Position numbers and translations under genes: made by a program | In this document: positions 5,767 through 55,964 of the stretch, piece after piece | Numbering within the stretch: the stretch's first letter is position 1 | How the letters are laid out: every line of letters starts with the position of its first letter | Source: an uncultured Clostridia bacterium | Lineage (GTDB): Bacteria > Bacillota > Clostridia > TANB77 > CAG-508 | Assembly: GCA_947628815.1 (NCBI GenBank) | Contig: CANRBJ010000002.1 | Location: 3,584 to 67,583, forward strand | Direction: 5' to 3' | DNA: 64,000 nt | Notes under the pieces: generated by a model | Seen by the model: the letters and a program-made list of their open reading frames with translations, nothing else | Databases searched by the model: none | What the model was told of the DNA's origin: nothing

Positions 5767-6117
5767 TCACACCTCTTTGCTTTCTTCAGGTTCGTCCCTC
5801 TTCGGCACGTAGTTGACACCATTCCTGAGTTTTGTTTTCTTGTCGCCAGTCAATTTAGCATACTTGTAGTTATTCCTGATGTATTGCCAGAAGTAATGAC
5901 CTTTACTGCTGGCAGTATGCCAACGTCTATATACAATAACTGGGACATCGTAGTAAACATATATGTCGTCAGGTCCGCCGTTCTTACCCTTGAATTGAAC
6001 ATAAACATCACCTGTTTTGTCTTTTGCTCCTCGAACGTTGATATTATACGCCCAGATATTAGAGGACTTGACTCTAATCATACTTTTTGTTATATCTTTA
6101 GAGCTGATAGAGGCCAT
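5767..6117 (-). CDS. KTSC-domain protein
   Basis: YVQFKGKNGGPDDIYVYYDVPVIVYRRWHTASSKGHYFWQYIRNNYKY matches the KTSC domain pattern. The ATG at 6117 (MASISS) is preferred over the track start at 6192. Confidence 0.6.
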   Translation of the reverse strand: MASISSKDITKSMIRVKSSNIWAYNINVRGAKDKTGDVYVQFKGKNGGPDDIYVYYDVPVIVYRRWHTASSKGHYFWQYIRNNYKYAKLTGDKKTKLRNGVNYVPKRDEPEESKEV

Positions 6118-6232
6118 TATTGACTCTCTTTCAGATGCTGTGCAAAATGCGATATCAACTATCTGCACACGAGGAGTACGCCGTATCCTCATTCAAATAG
6201 ACCTCCTTAGCTGATTTCAACTGTATAAAAGG

Positions 6233-6676
6233 TTACATTGTCTGGCACTTATGTGCTTCAGAGGTTGCGATTTGGTCACACCGTTCATTCATTAGATCTC
6301 CTGAATGCCCTTTGACCCAGTGGAAAATAACTTTGTGATTTTCCATGAGCCGAATTAGTTCAACCCAGAGGTCTTGATTTTTGACTGGTTTATTATCAGA
6401 CGTATGCCATCCAGATCTCTGCCAGCCTTTTATCCATCCTTTGTTGACTGCATTTACAATATATGCAGAATCTGAATAGATATGTACTTCACACGATACT
6501 TTTAGTGCTTTGATGCCTTCAATTACAGCAGATAATTCCATTCGGTTGTTAGTTGTATCTGATAGGCCGCCGCATATAACTTTCTCTTGATCTTTATATT
6601 GTAAGATTGCAGCGTATCCACCAGGTCCTGGATTGCCGATACACGCACCATCTGTATAAATAGTTACTTGTTTCAT
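6233..6676 (-). CDS. rnhA: Ribonuclease HI
   Basis: IYTDGACIGNPGPGGYAAIL...TNNRMELSAVIEGIKAL...IYSDSAYIVN...WVKGHSGDLMNERCDQIA carries the canonical RNase H DEDD motifs. Confidence 0.9.
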   Translation of the reverse strand: MKQVTIYTDGACIGNPGPGGYAAILQYKDQEKVICGGLSDTTNNRMELSAVIEGIKALKVSCEVHIYSDSAYIVNAVNKGWIKGWQRSGWHTSDNKPVKNQDLWVELIRLMENHKVIFHWVKGHSGDLMNERCDQIATSEAHKCQTM

Positions 6677-19016: not shown

Positions 19017-20111
19017 TTATGCTAATGCTAATCGCATACCCTCATTTCTGATATTTATGGCAGCATTTACATCTCGGTTGTGCCGTGTACCGCACTCAGC
19101 ACAAATCCAGTTCCTTATGGACAAGTCCTTTGTTTCGGGATTTTTACAGCCACAAACATTGCAAATTTGACTGCTTGGAAAAAATTTATCAACTTTTATA
19201 AGCTTTTTTCCCGCTTCATCAAGTTTGTATTGCAGAAATGTTGTGAACATACCCCAACCATTATCGCTTACGGATTTGCCGAAGTGTAACGCCCCCGACA
19301 TAGCTTTCATGTCAAGATTTTCAATGCATACACAATCATAGGCATTGGCTATCTGTCTTGATTGCTTATGCAAAAAATCCTTACGCTGATTTGAAACCTT
19401 TTCGTGAAGTTTTGCAACCTTGATGCGCTGCTTATTACGGTTATTTGAATCTTTCTGCATATGAGATAACTTTCGCTGTTCTTTTGCAAGTTTAGCTTCA
19501 GAAAGGCGGTAGTATCTCGGATAATTAGGCTCATTGCCATCACTGTCAACATACAATTCGTGCATAGAAAAATCCAAACCTAAAAAGGAATGTGGTTCTA
19601 TTTGTTGTACTTGGCTTTCATACTCAAACAGAATACTTGCGTAATATTTACCGCTTGGATTTTGACTTACGGTTACAGATTTGAGTATGTAATCATCAGG
19701 TACTTGCCTATGCTGCTTGCACTTAACAAGCCCAATTTTGGGAAGTTTGAGTTGCCCGTTTTTTAGTGAGATATTGCCGTTTACATAATTTGTCGTATAA
19801 CTTCTATGGTTGGACTTTTTAGACTTGAATTTCGGAAAACCGACTTTAGGGTTTCTGAAAAAATTACCGTAAGCAGTTTGTAAATTCATTTGTGCGTTCG
19901 CAAGAGCAAGACTGTCAACTTCCTTTAACCACTCATATCTCGATTTGTACTGTGCCGGAGTGTTATTCAGCTTTTGATTTGTATTTTCATAATGCTTGAT
20001 TTTATCGGCAAGCATTTGGTTGTAGATAAAACGAACACATCCGAAGGTCTTGGCAAGCATTGTGCGTTGTTCTGCATTTGGGTATATTCTGAATTTATAT
20101 GCTTTATTCAA
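19017..20111 (-). CDS. tnpB: TnpB (OrfB) RNA-guided endonuclease of IS200/IS605
   Basis: RuvC residues are intact (GLDFS, CIENLD, NRDVNAAINI). Zinc ribbon CNVCG...CAECG. N-terminus MNKAYKFRIYPNAEQ is typical of TnpB. Confidence 0.9.
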   Translation of the reverse strand: MNKAYKFRIYPNAEQRTMLAKTFGCVRFIYNQMLADKIKHYENTNQKLNNTPAQYKSRYEWLKEVDSLALANAQMNLQTAYGNFFRNPKVGFPKFKSKKSNHRSYTTNYVNGNISLKNGQLKLPKIGLVKCKQHRQVPDDYILKSVTVSQNPSGKYYASILFEYESQVQQIEPHSFLGLDFSMHELYVDSDGNEPNYPRYYRLSEAKLAKEQRKLSHMQKDSNNRNKQRIKVAKLHEKVSNQRKDFLHKQSRQIANAYDCVCIENLDMKAMSGALHFGKSVSDNGWGMFTTFLQYKLDEAGKKLIKVDKFFPSSQICNVCGCKNPETKDLSIRNWICAECGTRHNRDVNAAINIRNEGMRLALA

Positions 20112-20117
20112 TGCTTC

Positions 20118-20510
20118 TCACCTTGACTTTCTATATATTTTTTTTATTACATTTATTGGTGCGCCGCCTGTTGTAAGCAAGCAAAAACTTTGACTCCAAA
20201 AATGTTCTTCCCAAAGTTTTTGTCGAATTGCAGGAAATTCTTTTTTCAAAAGGCGACTGCTTGCACTTTTGTAAGCATTTATGAATTTGCTCAACTCGCT
20301 TTTGGGGTGTGCCTTGAAAAGAATGTGGATATGGTCTTTATCATAATTCCATTCTTGAAGTGTAATATTGTATTTTGGAGCAATGTACTCAAATATTTCT
20401 TTTGCACGATACGAGATATTATCATCGAATACCTTTCGACGATATTTTACGACGAGTACAAGATGATAATACATCAGAAACACTGAATGTGCATTATTAT
20501 CTAATTCCAT
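20118..20510 (-). CDS. tnpA: IS200/IS605 Y1 (HUH) transposase TnpA
   Basis: YHLVLVVKYRRKVF, the HUH motif DKDHIHILF, and a C-terminal tyrosine region (INVIKKIYRK). Confidence 0.85.
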   Translation of the reverse strand: MELDNNAHSVFLMYYHLVLVVKYRRKVFDDNISYRAKEIFEYIAPKYNITLQEWNYDKDHIHILFKAHPKSELSKFINAYKSASSRLLKKEFPAIRQKLWEEHFWSQSFCLLTTGGAPINVIKKIYRKSR

Positions 20511-25021: not shown

Positions 25022-25288
25022 TTAAAGGTAGTTCTTTCTAAATTCTTCTTCAGTTATCTTAGCGATTCCCCATTTATCGGCTTTCTGATTCTTAGAAGAA
25101 TTCGAAGAAGGGTCATCGGTAATCAAGAATCTAGTATCTTTAGAAATATCACCTGCTATATATCCATAAGCTTTGAGTTCCTTTTCAAAATCAGCCCTTT
25201 TTACCGATAATTTTCCAGTTATAGCAACTTTTATTTTATTTTCAACTACCTTATCTTCTAGGGGATTTTTTTCTTGATACACGGTCAA
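25022..25288 (-). CDS. ligA: NAD-dependent DNA ligase, C-terminal BRCT segment, in a different frame from the ligase body
   Basis: KVAITGKLSVKRADFEKELKAYGYIAGDISKDTRFLITDDPSSNSSKNQKADKWGIAKITEEEF matches the LigA BRCT pattern. It only has a TTG start and overlaps the ligase body ORF across an A7 run (25266-25272). Confidence 0.7.
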   Translation of the reverse strand: MTVYQEKNPLEDKVVENKIKVAITGKLSVKRADFEKELKAYGYIAGDISKDTRFLITDDPSSNSSKNQKADKWGIAKITEEEFRKNYL

Positions 25289-26933
25289 ATATTAGATTCA
25301 ATCTATTGAACTTGCGAAGATTATCCAATATTGACTTAGCATTAGCTTCTCCTATAACACTAGACAATTTAGAACTTATCATATAGATATAACGATCATC
25401 GCGGTCGCTGGCATTCGACAATGCTAACACCTCATCTATTATATCAGGATACTTTGATAGCCTATCGCAGGTTTTGTCACCTAATCTCGGGATGTTAAGA
25501 GCTTTAAGCGCATCTGACATAGGTATATCTTTTCGGTTGTAGAGCATATCTAACATATCGTAGATAAGTTTTTTATGACCAGATGCGTGGTCTTGAATAT
25601 ACTCCATAGAATTATTAAGCATCAAGGTCTCTATGTTTAAATCTTTAGAGAACATCATATCTAAGAATTTAAATTTAATCTTATCGCCTAAGCCATCAAT
25701 CGGGGCAATATTTTCAATCCATACAGAAAGATCTTGACGGGCTGCGTTACCACAGAATTCATTGTTGCATTTAAGGTGCACACCATCCCATACTAATTCT
25801 TGGTGACATACTGGACATATCTTAGGTAATATTGATTTACTAGATTTTATAACTTTATTGATATTTGGTATGATTTCACCGTGTTTCTCTACCTCCACAA
25901 TTGAATCAACACCTATCTCATTATCCTTAATAAACTTTGCATTATATCCGGTACAATATTGAACTATAGTTCCAGATAATTCTACTGGAGCTATACGCAC
26001 TCTCGGCATAAGATAATTTGTTTTGGTCATGTTCCATTCAACTTCAAGTACTGGAGACTCCGCTACCTCTGAAGAAAACTTAAATGCTTGAGCATCATAT
26101 TTAACTTCGTAGGTATCTGAATCATATTGAAGCTTCATATTCTTAATAACTAGACCATCAATAGGATAGTCATGCTCTTTATTTAAATCCTCTGCCAATT
26201 CTGGAAAATCTGATATATTTTGTCTATCTATATCATAAATCATCTTAGAGGGTACTACTTTTTTAAAATTTTTCTCAAGCCAATGGTTCATGTACGTAAT
26301 ATAGTAGATAGGTAAAGAACCTCTTACATGACCCATTATTGTATATACTACAATACTTAAGAAATAAATATCTTCTGAAACGTCTTTAGAATTGATAATC
26401 CCAGCAGCAGAATTTCTTGAATTTTTTGCTTCTGGATGACGTTTCTTATATTCCTTCCAAGATTCACCGTCCATAAGAATTTCACCACGAACTGCCCCTG
26501 TGAATAATTTATCATCTATTTCCTCTGGAAGAATATATCTGATCTTATCGGTGATATCTATACCTACCTCTCCATTACCTCGGGTGAGGGCTCTGGCCAA
26601 TCTTCCATATTCATAATATAATACTACTGAAAGGCCATCTAATTTAAGAGATACTTGTACATCTTTTCTTTTAAGGGATTTTTGAATCTCCTCCCAAGAG
26701 TATGCCTTGTCAAGAGAACCGGCTAATCCGTATTTATGGGGAATCTTTTCACCTGGAGTAGAGTCTTTATTGACATCATATCCCCACCCGGTTTGTTTAA
26801 GTATCGGAGAATCAGGATCTTCTTTTCTTAATTCCTTCGTCATGCGGTCAAATTCTTCATCTGTATAAGAAGAGGTACCATCTGTATAATATTTTTGCGA
26901 GGCTTCTTTGATTTGGTTTTCTAATTTTGTCAT
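25251..26933 (-). CDS. ligA: NAD-dependent DNA ligase (adenylation, OB, Zn-finger and HhH domains)
   Basis: Adenylation lysine motif SLKLDGLSV. Zn finger CPVCHQ...CNNEFC. N-terminus YYTDGTSSYTDEEFD. Ends 13 codons after the A7 run, without a BRCT domain. Confidence 0.9.
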   Translation of the reverse strand: MTKLENQIKEASQKYYTDGTSSYTDEEFDRMTKELRKEDPDSPILKQTGWGYDVNKDSTPGEKIPHKYGLAGSLDKAYSWEEIQKSLKRKDVQVSLKLDGLSVVLYYEYGRLARALTRGNGEVGIDITDKIRYILPEEIDDKLFTGAVRGEILMDGESWKEYKKRHPEAKNSRNSAAGIINSKDVSEDIYFLSIVVYTIMGHVRGSLPIYYITYMNHWLEKNFKKVVPSKMIYDIDRQNISDFPELAEDLNKEHDYPIDGLVIKNMKLQYDSDTYEVKYDAQAFKFSSEVAESPVLEVEWNMTKTNYLMPRVRIAPVELSGTIVQYCTGYNAKFIKDNEIGVDSIVEVEKHGEIIPNINKVIKSSKSILPKICPVCHQELVWDGVHLKCNNEFCGNAARQDLSVWIENIAPIDGLGDKIKFKFLDMMFSKDLNIETLMLNNSMEYIQDHASGHKKLIYDMLDMLYNRKDIPMSDALKALNIPRLGDKTCDRLSKYPDIIDEVLALSNASDRDDRYIYMISSKLSSVIGEANAKSILDNLRKFNRLNLIFDRVSRKKSPRR

Positions 26934-26978
26934 TATCTACATTCCTTTGAATTATTTTATTGTAAATTGTTTTCTTGT

Positions 26979-26993
26979 AGTATATAACGAATC
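26979..26993 (-). promoter_or_regulatory. Phage promoter-motif copy (ATTCGTTA-TATACT)
   Basis: Motif family member, 46 nt upstream of the ligA start. Confidence 0.5.
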
Positions 26994-27002
26994 ACAACAT
27001 CC

Positions 27003-27069
27003 AAAAAAATATGACTGACAGCCGGTGCACACTTTCGATATCTTTCAATAACGACGTAGCTGTCAATCA
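27003..27069 (-). terminator. Hairpin plus T7 run closing the RNA-gene cluster
   Basis: 11-bp stem (27012-27022 with 27059-27069). Its single odd pair is U-G on the minus strand but C-A on the plus strand. Followed on the minus strand by TA-TTTTTTT (27003-27009). The loop is long (36 nt). Confidence 0.45.
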
Positions 27070-27072
27070 TAA

Positions 27073-27148
27073 TGGTTGGGTCGGTAGGATTCGAACCTAC
27101 GTATGACGGAGTCAAAGTCCGTTGCCTTCACCTCTTGGCAACAACCCA
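27073..27148 (-). tRNA. tRNA-Gln (anticodon UUG), CCA encoded
   Basis: Cloverleaf TGGGTTG-TT-GCCAAGAGGTGAAGGC-A-ACGGA-CTTTGAC-TCCGT-CATAC-GTAGG-TTCGAAT-CCTAC-CGACCCA-A-CCA. Architecture is close to bacterial tRNA-Gln. Confidence 0.85.
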
Positions 27149-27149
27149 A

Positions 27150-28085
27150 TATAGTATAAATGGAATAATATATTACTGAGAACCATTTCCGTTAGGAGGA
27201 TATGGTTCACTTAGAAATCAGATAACCAATCTGCAAAGATACTTCATTCTCAAAGCATCTTTCGTCTTCTCAGCACCTAACTGACTATTCGCTGACCTAT
27301 CCCTACCCTACGCCTAGACATTAAATAAAGGGGTCTGCGTAGCCTTCTTCCTCATCCTGGTTAATTTCTCCTTGAGATAGGATTTATGATAATATGCTTG
27401 AACCTTTGTATAGTTGCATATTATCCGTCTGACTAATTTGGCCTGGAGATTAGCCAGACTATCTTACTTTTTGGTACCAGATAGGTGTCACTAAGTCTCT
27501 TACTTCTTACCATGGTTTCCCTATCTAGGTAAAAGATGTATCATAGCGTATTCATCTTTTACCAGTAACATAAGTTTTTAATGCATATCGATCACGCTAT
27601 CAATCCTCTGCATAGACTTTTGGAATAGGGTTCCTTCCAACAGGAGGAGCCCTTTAAAGTCCTACCCCTCTATGAGTAGTCAACCCATCAAGCTTATAGG
27701 GGTGATTGCTTGGAGTGTCTCTTTGTAGCAAGATACATTCGAAGAACTGGTTGCTTAACCGCCAACCGCGGGGGATAATTTTTGACTATAGGTACATCCC
27801 ATCACTTGTCTTACCTATGACAGACACTGCGCACGAAAGCGTCCCGTCCTACCTTTATCAATCTTTATAGAATTCGATATACGGGTTAGATTGATAGGCA
27901 TAGGACCTCCTTTGTAGAAGCTCGTATATCTAATACTTACGAATTTATCATACATATGCTTGATAGGTCATAATAAAGATATTTTAGAAAACTCTGTTAT
28001 TGATGTTCTAAAATCCTTTCTTGCAGAGCGTGGACTGCAGTTATCAGATGAGAAGACATACGAAGATAAATTCTTTATAGTAAAT
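27150..28085. ncRNA. ORF-free, helix-rich ~0.93 kb segment between two tRNA genes: candidate large structured RNA (strand unresolved)
   Basis: No ORF of 60 aa or more on either strand, and visibly more GC-rich than the flanks. At least 9 helices, for example 27388-27397/27416-27425 (10 bp perfect), 27427-27437/27449-27459, 27475-27485/27520-27531 and 27846-27863/27889-27906 (16 of 18 pairs). Confidence 0.45.
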
Positions 28086-28166
28086 TGCACCGTCGAGGAC
28101 TCGAACCTCGGACTAAAGACTGACTTGATGTAGTCTATTTGCTCTAACCAACTGAGCTAACGGTAC
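28086..28166 (-). tRNA. tRNA-like gene with canonical acceptor, D and T arms but an aberrant anticodon arm (10-nt loop)
   Basis: GTACCGT-TA-GCTC-AGTTGGTTA-GAGC...CGAGG-TTCGAGT-CCTCG-ACGGTGC-A. The 30 nt in between fold only as AGACT/AGTCT around ACATCAAGTC. AGTC is repeated three times. No CCA is encoded. Confidence 0.5.
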
Positions 28167-28188
28167 ATATAAATATCTTTTATTCTTC

Positions 28189-28203
28189 ATTATATAACGA
28201 ATC
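28189..28203 (-). promoter_or_regulatory. Phage promoter-motif copy (ATTCGTTA-TATAAT) upstream of the tRNA-like gene
   Basis: The hexamer ends 22 nt upstream of the tRNA-like 5' end (28166). Confidence 0.5.
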
Positions 28204-28284
28204 TAAAATTAAGTTATTATATAATGAAAGAATACCTAGATGGGCCTATCCGAGGTGCCCTCTATAGAATAAATCTTATTTTAT

Positions 28285-28313
28285 ATTATATAACGAATTG
28301 AATCAAATGTCAA
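28285..28313 (-). promoter_or_regulatory. Perfect sigma-A promoter TTGACA-17 nt-TATAAT that also contains the ATTCGTTA motif in its spacer
   Basis: On the minus strand, TTGACA (28313-28308), a 17-nt spacer ending in ATTCGTTA, then TATAAT (28290-28285). Confidence 0.7.
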
Positions 28314-28514
28314 TACCGAAATATAAATAAATTAAAATTAAATTCTATTTACTTAGGGTCTAGGTGTCTCCTATCATATCTCTTCACGGAAGATAGTACC
28401 GCCATCTGTTATCGCTATAGTGGCATCGTCTTTGTATCGAAAAGAGTCCGTCTAGTTTTGATCCTATTTATAAGGGTTAGGTGGAAACTAAAATAAAATC
28501 TGTATATCCCTTAG

Positions 28515-28583
28515 TAGAAATTATCAGGATTGAACTGATATCTTTCCTTGTAACAGGAATGCTTTTCTTTAAGCTAAATTTCC
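28515..28583 (-). tRNA. Short tRNA-like gene (69 nt) with a 6-nt anticodon loop and a D-loop lacking GG
   Basis: GGAAATT-TA-GCTT-AAAGAA-AAGC-A-TTCCT-GTTACA-AGGAA-AGAT-ATCAG-TTCAATC-CTGAT-AATTTCT-A. The T arm and acceptor are good, but the anticodon loop is 6 nt (or 8 nt with a 4-bp stem). Confidence 0.4.
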
Positions 28584-28630
28584 AGGTATCTCCGTCTTTC
28601 CGGAGTGTCATTGCGGTAGATCATATGTCT

Positions 28631-28891
28631 TTATGATAAATTGACCGGTGGATACACCGCTATGTTTATTGTGTCTGCTTCTGATATATTTTCTGGAACA
28701 GTGCCAAAAATTCTATCAAAATCTCTATTAAGATATTCTTTGGGAATTTGATGTGCCATCCCTCTCCAAAGCAGATAATGGTAACTTCCTTCCTCGTCCT
28801 GTCTATCTTCCCAAATAGCCACTATCTCATTGTGACTAATTATAGCATCTATTAATTTATCAACGGTACGAGGCTTTAATTTTTCTGTCAT
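28631..28891 (-). CDS. Hypothetical protein embedded in the RNA island
   Basis: 86-codon ORF with a TTGGAGGT RBS 8 nt upstream. Confidence 0.6.
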   Translation of the reverse strand: MTEKLKPRTVDKLIDAIISHNEIVAIWEDRQDEEGSYHYLLWRGMAHQIPKEYLNRDFDRIFGTVPENISEADTINIAVYPPVNLS

Positions 28892-28924
28892 TTTAAGATA
28901 CCTCCAATTTCAGGTTACTCTATA

Positions 28925-28940
28925 CTACATAACGAACTCG
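28925..28940 (-). promoter_or_regulatory. Phage promoter-motif variant (AGTTCGTTA-TGTAGT)
   Basis: Variant motif 34 nt upstream of the 28891 start. Confidence 0.3.
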
Positions 28941-29003
28941 AAGAATAGTAAGTCCGGACGAATCATATTTTTCTGTAGAATTTATCGTCATTTTCTACTT
29001 AAA

Positions 29004-29448
29004 TGGTGGACCTGAGGGGAGTCGAACCCCTGTCCAAAACGACTATAACTAAGAAACCTTTTTACGCAATAGACGATATTTTGTCACAAGAGTTCGTCAT
29101 TCTCTTGATCCTTATTTCTCTTCGTGTGTGACATATTCCGAAGTGACCTATTATAAGATCAATTGGGGCGCAAAGGTTGCACCACTCCACCACTCATTTT
29201 CTAAGAGCTAATGAGAAACCTTGTTGCTATCTCTATCTTTGAACCTCATATGTTTACCGAGAAGCAGGTACATAGTTTTGGTACCCTTAATTGCTGTTAG
29301 GCTGCTACCTTTCTTGCTGAAAGAGCTGCAATAGCAGCGGGGTGAATTGTAACAACTTTGTCAGTTATTTTAAAATTGCTCCGTAAAGTGGTAGCATACT
29401 TGCGAGTTTCAAAAGCTTAATTCGCCCTGTCGAAACCGATACAGGCCC
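29004..29448 (-). ncRNA. ssrA: tmRNA (transfer-messenger RNA), 445 nt
   Basis: 5' end GGGCCTGTATCGGTTTCGACAGGG and 3' end GGACAGGGGTTCGACTCCCCTCAGGTCCACCA. The acceptor stem has the G3-U70 alanine identity pair. The internal tag frame ends ...RKVAA-TAA (stop at 29299-29297). Confidence 0.85.
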
Positions 29449-29598
29449 ATTTAAAACGACTATTTTATTAGCCGTCCTCTTCTGGTAGCATACAAAGCAT
29501 AATTACAACCTCCTTATTAATTAAATCTACATTATTTTATTCGGAAATGACTAATAGATTCATCTAAGGAACTATTAGACTTCTAATGTATCAATCCT

Positions 29599-29994
29599 TT
29601 ACAAAGTTTCTAATATGCTGTAATTCTGATCTTGGCAATAATGCTCCATAGCTAATTTAAGGCAATCTGATTGAAGATACAATTTATCATCTATTTTATC
29701 CCATTCTGGATATGAATGATTTATGTATTCTAGATACGAATGATGTCTGTATAAAGTATATCTAGAAAATTGATTACGCTCAATAGCATAACGAGCTAAT
29801 ATTCCAGAATTTCCTTTAGTAGTAATAGAATGAGCTATTTCTCGTGCGTGGGAAATATCAGAACCTATCGGAATCATTCTTTGAACTATAAATATTCGCT
29901 TATCTTGATATTTATTGATGGATAACATAGCTGATAATATCATCAAATTAGATTTATCTCCTTGATTCATCACTACAACTCTATAAGGTGACAT
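29599..29994 (-). CDS. Hypothetical protein
   Basis: 131-codon ORF downstream of two tandem promoter-motif copies. Confidence 0.6.
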   Translation of the reverse strand: MSPYRVVVMNQGDKSNLMILSAMLSINKYQDKRIFIVQRMIPIGSDISHAREIAHSITTKGNSGILARYAIERNQFSRYTLYRHHSYLEYINHSYPEWDKIDDKLYLQSDCLKLAMEHYCQDQNYSILETL

Positions 29995-30028: not shown

Positions 30029-30043
30029 ATTATATAACGAATT
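30029..30043 (-). promoter_or_regulatory. Phage promoter-motif copy (ATTCGTTA-TATAAT)
   Basis: 35 nt upstream of the 29994 start. Confidence 0.5.
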
Positions 30044-35982: not shown

Positions 35983-36378
35983 TTAGTCGACTTCTTCTCT
36001 CATCCACTTGTGCGAACCCTTGAATCTGCATATCTTCTGAGATTCCTCATCAGAAAATCTACTTGCCTGACTTTTAGTACACCAGCGAACTCCGCCTCCA
36101 CGTTTCCAATAGAGTCGACTCCCGTCTTGGTTAGGTTCAACATCTGAAGCATAGCAAACATATTCAGCATCAAGAGATTCTATTTCTAACTCATTTGCAT
36201 ATTCGGTCTGAAGACCTTTTATGTATTTTAAAGCATCTTCCTCGGTTTCAAAACCAGAAGCAAATAAGTTTCCATCATTATCTTCTATGACGTACGAAAA
36301 TCCGTCAAAATAATATTGGTAACCGGTTCCTGGCACATGTGCAATATTTAAGCCGCTATCTTCTATTAATCGCTTCAT
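35983..36378 (-). CDS. Hypothetical protein
   Basis: 131-codon ORF with an AGAGGGATCATATG RBS context. Confidence 0.55.
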   Translation of the reverse strand: MKRLIEDSGLNIAHVPGTGYQYYFDGFSYVIEDNDGNLFASGFETEEDALKYIKGLQTEYANELEIESLDAEYVCYASDVEPNQDGSRLYWKRGGGVRWCTKSQASRFSDEESQKICRFKGSHKWMREEVD

Positions 36379-36638
36379 ATCATATGATCCCTCTTTAATC
36401 AGTTATCAATGATTTGATCCTACTTATATATATTTCGCATACCTCATATATTATATCAAATCAATTCACTATTGTATTTTATATACATGTAAGATAATCA
36501 CTGTTGTTAAAGTCACCATACTGTTCATAGTCAACTTATACAGGTTTTGTAATGGTGGTATAGGTTTTTTGCTACAAATATTGCAATCCACATACCTGGA
36601 TTTTAGTCCATTATTTATAAACAGTCACTTCTGCATCA

Positions 36639-37235
36639 TCAATGCTTGCGATAGTATATATTCCTACTAGCAGTTTTGATGTCAACAAATGCTTCAGAAA
36701 TACCTGGATCGACTATATCGAAGTATGCTTTCTCATCATACTTAGTGATGGCCTCATTGCAAACTTGACAGAGTTCAAACATGTAATCATATGAAAGCTC
36801 TGCTCTAAGTTCCACATGAATTCTTCCGCCACCTGTACTCTTTACATCACAGAAGAGCATATCGGAGATGTCATTGAGGTCATATCCGTAATCTTCTGTC
36901 TGTAAGAGCTCGGATGCGGTGCTGTATATATCATCATGGATTTGCTTGATGAGTTCACTTACTTGCCATCTTGGAATCTGGAACCTGCCAAGATCTGCGC
37001 ATTCAATAAATTGAATATCTGTGCTGGCATCTGTCATATACACGAACTTGATGCTACCATCAAACTGCGGTTCTGAAATAAGCTCAGCTCCGCATTCGTC
37101 ACATATAAAAGTGTCGTGATAATCAACATCTGTATTCCTCATAACATCGTGATCTATGCAATAAAGGGTTTTATTAGTACATGATGGGCAGATGAAAGCT
37201 TTATTTCCTGTACTACTTATTATTACTCTTTTCAT
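36639..37235 (-). CDS. Hypothetical protein with CxxC pairs (zinc ribbon-like N-terminus)
   Basis: ORF track gives 36639..37301. ATG at 37235 (MKRVIISS) has an AGGAGTGGTG RBS. Contains CPSC...CDEC. Confidence 0.55.
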   Translation of the reverse strand: MKRVIISSTGNKAFICPSCTNKTLYCIDHDVMRNTDVDYHDTFICDECGAELISEPQFDGSIKFVYMTDASTDIQFIECADLGRFQIPRWQVSELIKQIHDDIYSTASELLQTEDYGYDLNDISDMLFCDVKSTGGGRIHVELRAELSYDYMFELCQVCNEAITKYDEKAYFDIVDPGISEAFVDIKTASRNIYYRKH

Positions 37236-40440: not shown

Positions 40441-40455
40441 ATTATATAACGAATC
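40441..40455 (-). promoter_or_regulatory. Phage promoter-motif copy (ATTCGTTA-TATAAT)
   Basis: 43 nt upstream of the 40398 start. Overlaps the NADAR gene stop. Confidence 0.5.
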
Positions 40456-53570: not shown

Positions 53571-54005
53571 TTATACCAGATGATACCAAATCATTCTAGT
53601 TAGCACTCTTATTCGAGCCCTCCTAGAATCGTCTTGGACATCCTTGTAAATATATATAAGGTGATTACATTTTTTACTTTCATATATAGAATCTTTTACG
53701 GATCTACATACTTCTTTATCATCTACGTAAGATAGTATCTCCTCCAAATAGGCCCGTGTAAATGACTTCCTTTGTTTCTTTTTATCTTGTAAGATTTTTA
53801 TTACTTCCGGCTCTTTTCCCGTAAGTACCCAATCTATGGCCTCTGAATGTAACAATAAGTTGCCGGTTTGATTTGCCTTCTTACGAGCTTCAACTGCAAC
53901 CCACATTACTCCTTCATATACAGTGCTGAATTGTTTCTCTTTGCATAACTCGTTAAATTCTTCTATGTGCATCATTGACATTGAGTATGAACCCTCTTCC
54001 AGCAC
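53571..54005 (-). CDS. Hypothetical protein
   Basis: 144-codon ORF. The start is uncertain (candidate ATGs at 53981 and 53975). Confidence 0.5.
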   Translation of the reverse strand: MLEEGSYSMSMMHIEEFNELCKEKQFSTVYEGVMWVAVEARKKANQTGNLLLHSEAIDWVLTGKEPEVIKILQDKKKQRKSFTRAYLEEILSYVDDKEVCRSVKDSIYESKKCNHLIYIYKDVQDDSRRARIRVLTRMIWYHLV

Positions 54006-54433
54006 TTAGGACCTATACCTCTATTTATAGATTGAGGAGTAGTTAAAGTTTTACCACATATGCTACAGATTCCTTCGTGATACACCTTCATAGATGTATT
54101 TGTATCTAATGAATTTATTATTTTCATTAAATATACTAATCCTTGAAATATTGGATTATGTATGGAGAATCTGCTGTTCCTCGTTAATCTAACCGAAGTT
54201 TCGCTGCCTTTATACATGGCTGTATATTGCCAGGTGTTATCCAGACATAGATGATATATGAAAAGAGTATCTCTAGAAAATTTTTCCGGTTGTCTAGGTC
54301 TACTGAATTTATAGGTATGATAAACTCCGGTAGGGGATAATAAGGTAACTATGCCCTTCCCACCGGAGATATAATTTTTAATAGCTTTGCTCCCTATAAG
54401 CTCGGCAGAATTTTCATGATGAATATCACACAC
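53972..54433 (-). CDS. Hypothetical protein with a C-terminal GIGPKC zinc-ribbon-like motif (DUF6011-like)
   Basis: CSICGKTLTTPQSINRGIGPKCWKRV at the C-terminus. GTG start lies 11 nt after AGGGGG. Confidence 0.5.
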   Translation of the reverse strand: MCDIHHENSAELIGSKAIKNYISGGKGIVTLLSPTGVYHTYKFSRPRQPEKFSRDTLFIYHLCLDNTWQYTAMYKGSETSVRLTRNSRFSIHNPIFQGLVYLMKIINSLDTNTSMKVYHEGICSICGKTLTTPQSINRGIGPKCWKRVHTQCQ

Positions 54434-54466
54434 AGCATTATACCCCCTAAGTATAGTTTTCCATGT

Positions 54467-54481
54467 ATAATATAACGAATC
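54467..54481 (-). promoter_or_regulatory. Phage promoter-motif copy (ATTCGTTA-TATTAT), the rightmost copy
   Basis: 34 nt upstream of the 54433 start. Overlaps the stop of 54480..55505. Confidence 0.5.
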
Positions 54482-55505
54482 AACAGGGGTAGATTTTCGG
54501 TTTTGATAAATGTTTATCTATAGTATAATCTGCATATCTATGTGAACGTCTTATCATTTCGTCTAATATTCTTTGTTTATCATGAGAGAAATTACAGTAA
54601 TATAATTCTAAAGCATCTAGATAACATCTTAATTTGGTTTGAATAATTTTATATCCATCTTCCGAAGATGATACTTCGGTATTACAACCTCCACCCTGTC
54701 TTAGTAAATTCAATGGATGAGGTACTCGTCCAACTTCTTCATAACACCACTCAGCTAAAGTATTTATATCACCATTTATTGTCCATTCAATATCATTCAA
54801 TAACTGAGTAAGGTTGTCTACAAATTCCCCTTCAATGTTCCACTTCAAGGCAACTACATCAGTCCATAACTCAATAGCATATTTCAATATATCTGTGTAA
54901 CAAGATTCGGTAGAGAACTCTTCTATCGGCTGTATATCAAAGGAGTCACCGTCATCTTCTATAGAAAAGGAAACAGGTTCATCTTGTATCTGCTCCACAA
55001 AGGTATCATCCGATACAATAGCGTTTAAATCTGCTAATACGTCAGAGGCTGAATAGTTAGCACTTATAGCAGTCAGATTTATATTATCGCACTTCGAGGA
55101 GCTTATTCGCTGAAGAGTCACGGACATCTTTCTGCTTGATTTTACGTCAACTACTTCTCCAAGCAATTCTTTCATCGCTTCATCTCGTAACTTAGTTATA
55201 TCTTTAAGTTTAACTCTATTATACTTCTTATTACCCTTATTAGTCTTTATCTCTAGATTGACTAAAGTGTTGTCATCTATATCCAATTCCGATATATCTT
55301 CATCTATGGGTTTCCATATAACTTGTACTGTATTACCAGCAGCAGTTTTAAATTTTCTAGATAAACTGCCATTTGGCAGCTCTTCTAACTCTTCTACATC
55401 TGCCCCCCAGTTTTTAAGCATATCAAATCCAGAATCTAGTATTTTAGCGAATTTATCTACTATACCTTTTAAATCGCCTATTACTCCAGCTTTAACTTCT
55501 TTCAT
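54480..55505 (-). CDS. Hypothetical protein (last gene of the head block)
   Basis: 341-codon ORF with a TGAGGTAAG RBS context. Confidence 0.55.
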   Translation of the reverse strand: MKEVKAGVIGDLKGIVDKFAKILDSGFDMLKNWGADVEELEELPNGSLSRKFKTAAGNTVQVIWKPIDEDISELDIDDNTLVNLEIKTNKGNKKYNRVKLKDITKLRDEAMKELLGEVVDVKSSRKMSVTLQRISSSKCDNINLTAISANYSASDVLADLNAIVSDDTFVEQIQDEPVSFSIEDDGDSFDIQPIEEFSTESCYTDILKYAIELWTDVVALKWNIEGEFVDNLTQLLNDIEWTINGDINTLAEWCYEEVGRVPHPLNLLRQGGGCNTEVSSSEDGYKIIQTKLRCYLDALELYYCNFSHDKQRILDEMIRRSHRYADYTIDKHLSKPKIYPC

Positions 55506-55530
55506 AGAAACTTACCTCAAATCTTACAAT

Positions 55531-55571
55531 GTTAAATCAAAGCCCCTCAAGGTGTATCAACCAGAGGGGCT
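55531..55571 (-). terminator. Rho-independent terminator
   Basis: 8-bp GC-rich stem AGCCCCTC (55541-55548) with GAGGGGCT (55564-55571). On the minus strand it is followed by TTGATTT. Confidence 0.7.
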
Positions 55572-55595
55572 CATAAATTTTGCTGAATGTATAAA

Positions 55596-55964
55596 TTATC
55601 TACCTCGTCTTGCAGCGGATGAAGGAATCTTACGAATGGTTCTACCACTCTTAATAGACTGACTCGCAGAGGATCTACGTCTACGAGTTGAAGCAGCTAC
55701 AAACCGTTTACCACGGAATGCTTTACGAGAAGCTTCAAGTACTTCTTCGTCGCCATCTGCTTCTACTGTGTATTCATCTTCACCTACCGCAAATACCACG
55801 GCATCTTCCTCTGCAGTCACCTCTACAGGTTCACCTGTTACTTCTGCAACAAGCTCTGCAACATCTTCCGCTTCAAAAAGAAGATCAGAAGCTTCCGGAG
55901 CTACCTGAGCGCCAGCTGTATCAATGTCATCGTTTGCTAAAATACGTTTTCTTTGAATATACAT
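55596..55964 (-). CDS. Hypothetical head-associated protein (acidic core, Arg-rich C-terminus)
   Basis: GAGGAG RBS 8 nt upstream. The antisense ORF 55688..56005 has no RBS. Confidence 0.5.
   Translation of the reverse strand: MYIQRKRILANDDIDTAGAQVAPEASDLLFEAEDVAELVAEVTGEPVEVTAEEDAVVFAVGEDEYTVEADGDEEVLEASRKAFRGKRFVAASTRRRRSSASQSIKSGRTIRKIPSSAARRGR

What the first reader, a model, noticed from the sequence alone, without database searches (positions are those of the whole stretch)
27150..28085. ~0.93 kb ORF-free, helix-dense segment between two tRNA genes: candidate large ornate phage RNA
**Seen in sequence.** No ORF of 60 aa or more exists on either strand in a genome that is otherwise packed with genes. 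The segment is noticeably more GC-rich than its flanks. It contains many local and long-range helices:
- 27180-27186 / 27202-27208
- 27388-27397 / 27416-27425 (10 bp, perfect)
- 27427-27437 / 27449-27459 (the one odd pair is G-U only on the minus strand)
- 27475-27485 / 27520-27531 (11 bp plus a bulge)
- 27532-27538 / 27553-27559
- 27714-27720 / 27822-27828
- 27788-27794 / 27812-27818
- 27846-27863 / 27889-27906 (16 of 18 paired; its two wobbles are valid only on the plus strand)

The segment is flanked by tRNA-Gln and a tRNA-like gene. Promoters lie upstream on the minus strand (28189-28313) and a terminator lies downstream (27003-27069).

**Established knowledge.** The large ornate RNA families GOLLD and ROOL were described as frequently phage- or prophage-borne and adjacent to tRNA genes.

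**Inference.** This may be a member of, or an analogue to, such giant structured RNAs. The strand is unresolved because the wobble evidence conflicts.
Basis: partly seen in the sequence, partly recalled or inferred. Interest (0 to 1): 0.75.

Follow-up and report, generated by a model that had tools for sequence, protein, structure and literature searches.

The report
Orphan hairpin-rich non-coding stretch between phage tRNAs
A 0.94-kb gene-free, unusually hairpin-rich stretch sits between two tRNA genes of an uncultured large phage and is almost certainly transcribed with them, but it matches no known RNA family and has no relatives anywhere we could search, so a new large phage RNA remains a plausible but unproven reading.

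Summary
Window 27149-28084 has no ORF of 60 aa or more. It lies between tRNA-Gln and an odd tRNA inside a minus-strand RNA-gene cluster of two strong phage promoters, tRNA, the 936 nt, tRNA-Gln and a terminator, with a phage tmRNA nearby.

It is helix-dense beyond chance. It has four perfect hairpins of 9 bp or more, against 0.13 in shuffles and 0.40 per 936 nt in the rest of the window. MFE z is -4.8. The minus-strand ensemble is better defined than all 16 shuffles and all 12 native control windows.

- No Rfam family matches at E<=10, so it is not GOLLD, ROOL, an intron or RNase P.
- No homologue turned up in INPHARED phages, 81 loci of related phages, IMG/VR, JGI metagenomes or GTDB genomes. 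Covariation therefore cannot be tested.
- The phage is itself an orphan: its nearest ligase is 51% identical.
- The energy signal is only about 2 SD from native genome background.
- A truly conserved RNA in related phages scores z of only -1, so thermodynamics is a weak guide.

Best reading (about 0.45): a lineage-specific structured RNA released from a tRNA operon. Main rival (about 0.3): a transcribed, non-functional spacer or relic in a plastic tRNA island.

The parts
28285..28313 (-). Strong sigma-70-type promoter (TTGACA-17-TATAAT, 12/12) containing the phage-specific motif ATTCGTTATATA. It heads the tRNA / 936-nt / tRNA-Gln unit.
   Evidence: The motif occurs 10 times in the window, always on the minus strand; 0 of 100 shuffles reach 10.
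28189..28217 (-). Second copy of the promoter motif (TTCGTTATATAAT), 22 nt upstream of the tRNA. It has no good -35 hexamer.
   Evidence: (repeat D2).
28085..28167 (-). Atypical 83-nt tRNA with a 12-13 nt anticodon loop; ARAGORN calls it Val(tac). Its 3' end abuts the ORF-free segment.
   Evidence: (Rfam tRNA, 45.8 bits).
27149..28084 (-). ORF-free, hairpin-rich segment of 936 nt; candidate structured RNA.
27264..28057 (-). Predicted core of about 794 nt, closed by the 9-bp long-range helix 28057-28049/27272-27264. It contains a second long-range helix, 27969-27954/27697-27682 (15 bp, 2 G-U, minus strand only), and the perfect hairpins.
   Evidence: (I2). This is a prediction only, with no covariation.
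27380..27465 (-). Two abutting hairpins, 27459-27427 (11 bp) and 27425-27388 (10 bp plus 4 bp). This is the most significant local structure, z -5.68 with 0 of 200 shuffles as stable.
27073..27148 (-). tRNA-Gln(UUG). Its 5' end abuts the segment, so RNase P cleavage there would define the 3' end of the segment's RNA.
   Evidence: 64 bits. The processing step is an inference.
27003..27068 (-). Intrinsic-terminator-like hairpin (14-bp outer stem) followed directly by AUAUUUUUUU. It ends the unit before the ligase promoter at 26981-26992.

Best explanation
The 936 nt form the non-coding middle of a minus-strand phage RNA operon.

**Proposed sequence of events.**
1. Transcription starts at the strong promoters at 28313-28189.
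2. It runs through the atypical tRNA, the 936-nt segment and tRNA-Gln.
3. It stops at the hairpin-U7 terminator at about 27003.
4. tRNA 3'-end processing at 28085 and RNase P cleavage at 27148 would then release an RNA of about 0.9 kb.
5. Its core (27264-28057) is predicted to close on itself through a long-range helix and to carry many stable hairpins.

**Reading.** I consider it most likely a lineage-specific structured non-coding RNA, or a few RNA modules, of this phage. In setting it is analogous to the large RNAs found in phage tRNA islands, but it does not belong to any described family.

**Shown.**
- The segment has no ORF of 60 aa or more and its stop-free stretches fit random sequence.
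- The promoter, tRNA and terminator architecture lies on one strand.
- There is an excess of perfect hairpins.
- The minus-strand fold is well defined.

**Inferred.**
- The RNA is released by tRNA processing.
- It is stable.
- It has a function. That function is unknown; acting on the translation or RNA-processing machinery during infection is a guess based on its neighbours.
For: - **No coding signal.** No ORF reaches 60 aa, six-frame stop spacing is as for random sequence, and Pfam finds nothing on any of the six frames.
- **RNA-gene cluster on one strand.** tmRNA at 29004-29448, tRNAs at 28514-28583, 28085-28167 and 27073-27148.
- **Transcription signals.** A perfect consensus promoter, a 10-fold repeated phage promoter motif all on the minus strand, and a terminator.
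- **Hairpins.** Four perfect hairpins of 9 bp or more, against 0.13 in shuffles (0 of 300 reach 4) and 0.40 per 936 nt elsewhere in the window. The twin hairpin scores z -5.7.
- **Whole-segment fold.** MFE z is -4.83. The minus-strand ensemble has 214 pairs at p>=0.7, entropy 0.69 and diversity 144. That is better than all 16 shuffles and all 12 native windows, and better than the plus strand.
- **GC content.** It is 8-10 points above the other intergenic stretches.
- **Precedent in related phages.** They carry a non-coding element in their tRNA islands that is conserved far above its flanks and shows compensatory changes (c1).
- **Precedent in known families.** ROOL and GOLLD are reported as phage-encoded and often near tRNA islands (PMC12286853).
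Against: - **No homologue anywhere searched.**
  - INPHARED blastn.
  - nhmmer, blastn and tblastx against 81 loci, about 1.6 Mb, of ligase relatives.
  - Two exact-pattern scans each of IMG/VR, JGI metagenomes and GTDB genomes, which returned only chance k-mers.
- **No variation to test.** All contigs of the same phage are 100% identical across the region. There is therefore no conservation or covariation evidence at all.
- **Weak energy signal.** Against native background the MFE z is only about 2 SD out, and one of 12 control windows reaches -4.4. 400-nt sub-windows score -1.4 to -2.5, against a background of -0.74, sd 1.43.
- **Strand-neutral hairpins.** Both strands fold almost equally well, and the strongest hairpins are perfect Watson-Crick. 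That fits DNA palindromes or young sequence equally well.
- **Thermodynamics is a poor proxy.** The conserved c1 RNA of relatives has z -0.96 and no long hairpins. Hairpin density is therefore not what marks a real ornate RNA here.
- **The locus is not preserved.** Relative L009 has only 183 nt between its tmRNA and tRNA-Gln.
Confidence: 0.45

Rival explanations
1. The segment is a transcribed but non-functional spacer or relic. It would be leftover or recently acquired DNA, such as decayed small genes, decayed tRNAs or recombination debris, in a recombination-prone tRNA island. The hairpins would be incidental or serve only as processing or stability elements for the flanking tRNAs.
For: - The segment is an orphan in every collection searched.
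- The syntenic islands of relatives are very plastic. They hold 0-19 tRNAs and many ORF-free gaps of 450-1600 nt, several of them also orphans.
- The energy signal is about 2 SD from native background.
- GC content (38%) and purine skew resemble coding DNA rather than typical spacers.
- An assembly-graph branch at 27282-27290 in one sample shows another sequence joining here.
Against: - No tRNA relic is detectable, even at E<=10 on the 936 nt alone.
- No protein relic is detectable by Pfam, by tblastx against relatives, or by a search with the branch ORF.
- The ten-fold excess of perfect hairpins and the best-defined ensemble among 28 comparators are not expected of decaying sequence.
- By inference, 0.9 kb of useless, highly transcribed RNA is costly in a compact phage genome.
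Confidence: 0.3
2. The segment is a DNA-level element, such as a replication origin or a cluster of protein-binding palindromes, lying next to the replication and repair genes (ligase, UvrD-like helicase, SMC-like ATPase, ThyX).
For: - The strongest hairpins are perfect Watson-Crick inverted repeats that fold equally on both strands.
- The neighbouring genes are replication and repair genes.
- Strong promoters adjoin the segment. From general knowledge, R-loop-primed origins such as T4 oriF and oriG use such promoters.
Against: - There are no iterons or direct repeats inside the segment.
- The segment is not AT-rich; it is GC-richer than the other spacers.
- Cumulative GC skew shows no inflection here.
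- One long-range helix and one 11-bp hairpin need G-U pairs that are valid only on the minus-strand RNA.
Confidence: 0.08
3. The segment hides one or more very small protein genes. The best candidate is a 28-aa basic peptide, MPINLTRISNSIKIDKGRTGRFRAQCLS, at 27901-27815 (-), with GGAGG 4 nt upstream of its AUG.
For: - A perfect Shine-Dalgarno core (AAAGGAGG) precedes an in-frame AUG inside the 46-aa ORF 27815-27955 (-).
- Islands of relatives hold many small ORFs.
Against: - One GGAGG in 936 nt is close to chance expectation by my own estimate.
- The spacing of 4 nt is short.
- The Shine-Dalgarno sequence and the ORF lie inside predicted hairpins.
- The public gene calls on the identical contigs call no gene between the 86-aa gene and the ligase.
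- There is no homologue.
- The peptide would explain under 10% of the segment.
Confidence: 0.07
4. The segment is a divergent member of a described large RNA family: GOLLD, ROOL, a group I or II intron, RNase P, OLE or raiA.
For: Only the setting supports this: a phage, next to tRNAs, of about the size of GOLLD (PMC12286853).
Against: cmscan against all 4227 Rfam 15 families with permissive filters at E<=10 on the 936 nt alone gives no hit to any of these families. I also saw no intron boundary motifs or domain V-like hairpin by eye.
Confidence: 0.02

Closest known systems
[quoted passage not shown]
   Same: - It is a phage- or prophage-encoded non-coding RNA, with many members exceeding 800 nt.
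- It is often found in or next to tRNA islands, sometimes with tRNAs embedded (PMC12286853).
- The segment here is 936 nt, lies directly between two tRNAs in a phage, and is on the same strand as them.
   Different: - There is no match to the Rfam GOLLD model, even at E<=10.
- No conserved 3' domain can be identified.
- No family of homologues exists, so there is no covariation-supported structure.
- The hairpins here are long and perfect rather than ornate and irregular.
ROOL RNA (Rumen-Originating, Ornate, Large)
   Same: - It is encoded in phages and prophages, often near tRNA islands, with unknown function (PMC12286853).
- The present phage's nearest ligase relatives include proteins from Clostridium and Lachnospiraceae MAGs, a similar ecological setting to ROOL's by my own assessment.
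   Different: - There is no match to the Rfam ROOL model.
- No multi-pseudoknot consensus can be tested.
- From my own knowledge ROOL is about 580 nt, shorter than this segment.
Stable small RNAs of the phage T4 tRNA cluster (species 1 and 2, rnaC/rnaD), from general knowledge
   Same: They are non-tRNA RNAs co-transcribed with phage tRNAs and released from the precursor by the host tRNA-processing enzymes. Their function is still unclear.
   Different: The T4 species are small, roughly 120-140 nt, whereas this segment is 936 nt. There is no sequence relation, and the comparison rests on recall, not on a test here.
Conserved non-coding element 'c1' in tRNA islands of related phages (e.g. L025:7829-8346, L016:3487-3884), found here
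   Same: - It is ORF-free, tRNA-free and 390-530 nt long.
- It lies between two tRNAs upstream of the homologous ligase in phages of the same broad group.
- It has no Rfam match.
   Different: - c1 is conserved at about 90% where flanking coding DNA is 68-77% identical. It shows compensatory pairs and a clean domain insertion or deletion.
- The window's segment has no relatives.
- It is not hit by the c1 profile HMM or covariance model.

Membership tests
GOLLD RNA (Rfam) | Significant match to the family covariance model, that is, the conserved 3' domain sequence and structure. | tested here: not met
   cmscan of all Rfam 15 families gave no GOLLD hit at gathering thresholds or at E<=10, on the window, on 26900-29600 or on 27149-28084 alone.
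GOLLD RNA (Rfam) | Phage or prophage location next to or within tRNA arrays. | tested here: met
   The segment is flanked by tRNAs at 28085-28167 and 27073-27148, and a tmRNA lies at 29004-29448. This feature is contextual and is not sufficient for membership.
ROOL RNA (Rfam) | Significant match to the family covariance model. | tested here: not met
   No ROOL hit at E<=10.
Group I / group II self-splicing introns | Match to the intron covariance models (catalytic core; domain V) and interruption of a host gene with flanking exons. | tested here: not met
   No Rfam intron hit at E<=10. Both flanking tRNAs are complete on their own. No reverse transcriptase or other domain was found in six-frame Pfam scans.
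Decayed tRNA array (pseudo-tRNAs) | Residual cloverleaf or T-arm matches to the tRNA model. | tested here: not met
   No tRNA-clan hit inside 27149-28084 at E<=10 with lax filters. ARAGORN finds none.
Large structured ncRNA in general (Breaker/Weinberg criteria) | Homologues in several genomes, with nucleotide conservation and statistically supported covariation. | tested here: inconclusive
   No homologue was found in any accessible collection. Contigs of the same species are identical. Covariation therefore cannot be assessed.
Large structured ncRNA in general | Folding more stable and better defined than controls. | tested here: met
   - MFE z is -4.83 against shuffles, though only about 2 SD against native windows.
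- The ensemble is better defined than all 28 comparators.
- Perfect hairpins are enriched ten-fold.
- This is weak evidence, because the conserved c1 RNA of relatives scores z -0.96.
Large structured ncRNA in general | A stable transcript of defined length. | not testable with these tools
   Only promoter, terminator and tRNA-processing context could be inferred.

The most novel reading that the evidence does not exclude
The segment encodes the founding member of a new class of large (about 0.8-0.9 kb) phage RNA. It would be excised from a tRNA operon by the host tRNA-processing enzymes and fold into a closed multi-domain architecture. Like GOLLD and ROOL, it could act as an RNA-only assembly during infection, alongside the phage's own tmRNA and unusual tRNAs. 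Related phages would carry different, non-homologous large RNAs, such as c1, at the equivalent place. On that view, tRNA islands of this phage group would be a general nursery of large structured RNAs.
Probability: 0.25. Interest if true: 0.7.

Novelty: new member of a known kind. Interest (0 to 1): 0.42.

Why it matters
Large structured RNAs of unknown function in phage tRNA islands (GOLLD, ROOL) were recently shown to build RNA-only nanocages, and very few such classes are known.

- **If this segment is a stable folded RNA.** It would add an unrelated class in the same genomic niche. Together with the conserved c1 element in related phages, it would suggest that tRNA islands of large Firmicutes-type phages repeatedly evolve big RNAs.
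- **If it is not.** It is a useful caution. An ORF-free stretch, hairpin density and folding z-scores alone make an attractive but unverifiable candidate. In the same phage group, the truly conserved RNA is thermodynamically unremarkable.

Tried and rejected
- **Known RNA families.** Rfam searches at gathering thresholds and at E<=10, at three scales, found nothing in the segment.
- **Reverse-transcriptase relic.** The plus-strand peptide at 27960-28084 ('...FLAERGLQLSDEKT...') looked like a reverse-transcriptase motif by eye. Pfam at E<=10 found nothing in any frame, so I dropped the idea.
- **Sequence homologues.**
  - INPHARED blastn in distant mode on the segment, and megablast on 16 kb around it, gave no match.
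  - nhmmer, blastn-short and tblastx against 81 IMG/VR loci of ligase relatives gave nothing.
  - A shared k-mer census found only AT-rich chance words.
- **Exact-pattern scans.** I used 17-21-mers from the GC-rich core and from hairpin loops, two scans each on viral contigs, metagenome contigs and genome contigs. They returned only chance hits: L086-L088 and L092.
- **Close relatives for covariation.** The ligase has no relative above 51% identity among 5.8 billion proteins. The contigs retrieved for the same phage are 100% identical over whatever part of the segment each covers.
- **Gene-relic lead.** Contig L003 replaces everything upstream of about 27290 with an ORF that reads into 27290-27218.
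  - Its partner contig L090, from the same sample, ends at 27249, so this is an assembly-graph branch.
  - The ORF has only N-terminal Big_2 homologues, and none share the C-terminus.
  - I rejected it as evidence for a decayed gene.
- **Homology to conserved non-coding elements of relatives.** Profile HMMs of c1-c4 and a covariance model of the c1 core found no hit in the window.
- **IS605 omega-RNA or internal paralogue.** nhmmer of the segment against the window finds only the segment itself.
- **Direct repeats or iterons.** There are none inside the segment. A 14-nt repeat (26956-26969 and 28074-28087) brackets the segment, tRNA-Gln, the terminator and the ligase promoter, but it is within chance.

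Full report
**1. What is at the coordinates**

The window is part of an uncultured phage of about 127 kb. Identical contigs of up to 126-127 kb exist in ENA and Logan assemblies. Nearly every ORF of 100 aa or more that does not overlap a longer one lies on the minus strand.

Between the NAD-dependent DNA ligase (25251-26933, -) and a 131-aa gene (29599-29994, -) lies an RNA-gene cluster, all on the minus strand:
- a tmRNA at 29004-29448 (Rfam, 82 bits);
- an 86-aa ORF at 28631-28891;
- a tRNA with a 6-nt anticodon loop at 28514-28583;
- a tRNA with a 12-13-nt anticodon loop at 28085-28167;
- the segment in question, 27149-28084;
- tRNA-Gln(UUG) at 27073-27148.

The segment has no ORF of 60 aa or more. 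The longest are 57, 54 and 46 aa. Stop-free runs in all six frames reach about 50 codons at most, which by my own estimate is what random 38% GC sequence gives. Pfam finds nothing in any frame at E<=10.

**2. Transcription context**

- A perfect TTGACA-17-TATAAT promoter lies at 28313-28285 (-).
- It contains a phage-specific motif, ATTCGTTATATA. The motif occurs ten times in the window, always on the minus strand; the copies I placed against the ORF map lie between genes, and 0 of 100 shuffles reach ten.
- A second copy sits at 28191-28202, just upstream of the tRNA at 28167.
- A third, at 26981-26992, precedes the ligase.
- Downstream of tRNA-Gln, a 14-bp-stem hairpin followed directly by AUAUUUUUUU (27068-27003, -) looks like an intrinsic terminator.

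The segment is therefore the middle of a promoter / tRNA / 936 nt / tRNA-Gln / terminator unit on the minus strand. That tRNA processing would release it as an RNA of about 0.9 kb is an inference.

**3. Is it more structured than chance?**

*Against dinucleotide shuffles.* MFE z is -4.83 on the minus strand and -4.55 on the plus strand.

*Against native sequence.* I calibrated with windows from the same genome.
- Twelve other 936-nt windows have mean z -1.17, sd 1.78, and one reaches -4.42.
- 400-nt sub-windows of the target score -2.3, -1.4 and -2.5 on the minus strand. The background is -0.74, sd 1.43.
- The energy excess is therefore real but only about 2 SD.

*Two further measures are stronger.*
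- The segment has four perfect hairpins of 9 bp or more: 27388-97/27416-25, 27528-38/27553-63, 27856-64/27888-96 and 27981-89/28006-14. Shuffles give 0.13 (0 of 300 reach four) and the rest of the window gives 0.40 per 936 nt.
- The minus-strand ensemble has 214 pairs with p>=0.7, mean positional entropy 0.69 and ensemble diversity 144. It is better defined than all 16 shuffles (134, sd 27; 1.15; 242) and all 12 native windows (124, sd 42; 1.21; 254). It is also better defined than the plus strand (171; 0.86; 179).

*Predicted architecture.* This is a prediction only.
- A 9-bp helix, 28057-28049/27272-27264, closes a core of about 794 nt.
- A 15-bp helix, 27969-27954/27697-27682 with two G-U pairs, closes an inner domain.
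- Several hairpins follow, including the abutting pair 27459-27427 and 27425-27388, which scores z -5.7.

*GC content.* The segment is 38.4% GC and the core 40%. The genome is 36.0% and the other spacers are 27-32%.

**4. Strand**

Minus is clearly the better bet:
- gene orientation, tRNAs, tmRNA, all promoter motifs and the terminator are on the minus strand;
- the minus ensemble is better defined;
- the 11-bp hairpin and the 15-bp long-range helix need minus-only G-U pairs.

One hairpin (27846-27906) has plus-only wobbles, and the central 400 nt folds better on the plus strand (z -3.85). The thermodynamic evidence alone is therefore not decisive.

**5. Identity tests**

*Known RNA families.* Rfam 15 (4227 families) gives no match in the segment. 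This held at gathering thresholds and at E<=10 on 2.7 kb and on the 936 nt alone. There was no GOLLD, ROOL, OLE, raiA, intron, RNase P, ribozyme or tRNA relic, only noise at 14-24 bits.

*Sequence homologues.* None turned up in any of the following:
- INPHARED;
- 81 IMG/VR loci, about 1.6 Mb, around ligase homologues, by nhmmer, blastn and tblastx;
- six exact-pattern scans of IMG/VR, JGI metagenomes and GTDB genomes.

*Why absence is weak evidence.* The phage itself is an orphan. Its ligase has no relative above 51% identity among 5.8 billion proteins. The contigs retrieved for the same phage are identical through whatever part of the segment each covers. Absence of homologues therefore says little, but it leaves conservation and covariation untestable.

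**6. A lead that failed**

Contig L003 shares the window only up to about 27290 and then continues into a GC-rich Big_2-domain ORF that reads into 27290-27218. Three results weigh against a gene relic:
- A second contig from the same sample (L090) carries the normal sequence and stops at 27249. This is an assembly-graph branch, not proof of an alternative gene.
- The ORF has only N-terminal Big_2 homologues.
- The ORF is absent from the window.

I do not count it as evidence that the segment is a gene relic.

**7. What the relatives show**

Phages with homologous ligases carry very plastic tRNA islands upstream of the ligase. They hold 0-19 tRNAs, sometimes a tmRNA, and many ORF-free gaps. Some of those gaps are conserved elements.

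*Element c1.*
- It is 390-530 nt long and lies between tRNA-Asn and tRNA-Lys.
- It is about 90% identical between phages whose flanking coding DNA is 68-77% identical or unalignable.
- It has compensatory changes in one hairpin and a clean domain insertion or deletion.
- It has no Rfam hit.

*Element c2.* Part of it resembles RAGATH-36 below threshold.

*Relation to the window.* None of these elements is related to the window's segment, by profile HMMs or by a covariance model.

*Two lessons.*
- tRNA islands of this phage group do host large conserved non-coding RNAs, which raises the prior for the window's segment.
- c1 has MFE z -0.96 and no long hairpins. Hairpin density and z-scores are therefore poor proxies for a real ornate RNA.

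**8. Verdict**

The specific interpretation, a GOLLD or ROOL member, is not supported. The general one, an analogous large structured phage RNA, is plausible but unproven.

| Reading | Probability |
|---|---|
| Lineage-specific structured RNA released from the tRNA operon | about 0.45 |
| Transcribed non-functional spacer or relic | about 0.30 |
| DNA-level element | about 0.08 |
| Hidden micro-ORF, e.g. 27901-27815 with GGAGG upstream | about 0.07 |
| Divergent known family | about 0.02 |

Transcript mapping and a profile search of complete public assemblies would decide between these.

Noticed in passing
window 29004-29448 (-): A phage-encoded one-piece tmRNA (Rfam RF00023, 82 bits, full length), which ARAGORN did not call. 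Relatives L009, L010 and L047 also carry tmRNAs in their tRNA islands.
   Followed up: partly
window 28085-28167 (-): An 83-nt tRNA (Rfam, 45.8 bits; ARAGORN calls it Val-tac) whose anticodon arm has a 12-13-nt loop with a duplicated AGUC. It could be a non-standard decoder, a tRNA with a mini-insert, or a decaying tRNA.
   Followed up: no
window 28514-28583 (-): A 70-nt tRNA (Rfam, 50 bits) that ARAGORN labels '???'. Its anticodon loop is 6 nt (GUUACA), or 8 nt if the closing pair opens, so it may be an unusual or frameshift-type decoder.
   Followed up: no
window, ten sites, e.g. 26981-26992, 28191-28202, 28287-28298, 30031-30042, 40443-40454 (all -): The phage-specific promoter motif ATTCGTTATATA(AT) occurs ten times, always on the minus strand; the copies I placed against the ORF map lie between genes. 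Chance expectation is 1.1.
   Followed up: partly
L025:7829-8346; also L020, L023, L024, L031, L045, L049, L016:3487-3884, L029:416-812: A conserved ORF-free element, 'c1', of 390-530 nt lies between tRNA-Asn and tRNA-Lys in related phages. It is about 90% identical where flanking genes are 68-77% identical. It has compensatory pairs and a clean 135-nt domain insertion or deletion, and no Rfam hit at E<=1. It is a good candidate for a new structured phage RNA.
   Followed up: partly
L025:6078-6211 (within element c2, L025:5924-6502; also L020, L023, L024, L031, L045, L049; weak in L005:2233-2408): A conserved non-coding element between tRNA-Leu and tRNA-Glu. Part of it matches RAGATH-36 (RF03104) at 42.8 bits, E 1.7e-6, which is below the gathering score of 70.
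   Followed up: no
window ~27249-27290; L003:1-800; L090 end: In sample ERZ27249363 the assembly branches here. One contig ends at 27249 with the normal sequence. Another joins a foreign, partly GC-rich Big_2-domain ORF at about 27290. This is either a strain variant lacking most of the segment or an inter-genome repeat.
   Followed up: partly
window 19017-20510 (-): An IS200/IS605-type pair inside the phage genome: a Y1 transposase (130 aa) and a TnpB/Cas12f-like OrfB (364 aa), by the Pfam annotation of the identical contig.
   Followed up: no
window ~6001-6400, ~36000-36935, ~54001-55935 (minus strand): Control windows with strongly negative folding z-scores: -5.4 and -3.8 to -3.9 at 400 nt, and -4.4 and -3.5 at 936 nt. 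They may hold other structured elements or strong terminators.
   Followed up: no
window 26956-26969 and 28074-28087: A 14-nt direct repeat (13 of 14 identical) brackets the module made of the 936-nt segment, tRNA-Gln, the terminator and the ligase promoter. It could mark an insertion or duplication boundary, or it could be chance.
   Followed up: no
L010:810-1733 and L010:4062-4650: The related phage with a tmRNA also has orphan ORF-free, tRNA-free gaps of 924 nt (z -1.3) and 589 nt (25% GC, z -5.5, two hairpins of 9 bp or more) in its tRNA island. Neither resembles the window's segment.
   Followed up: partly
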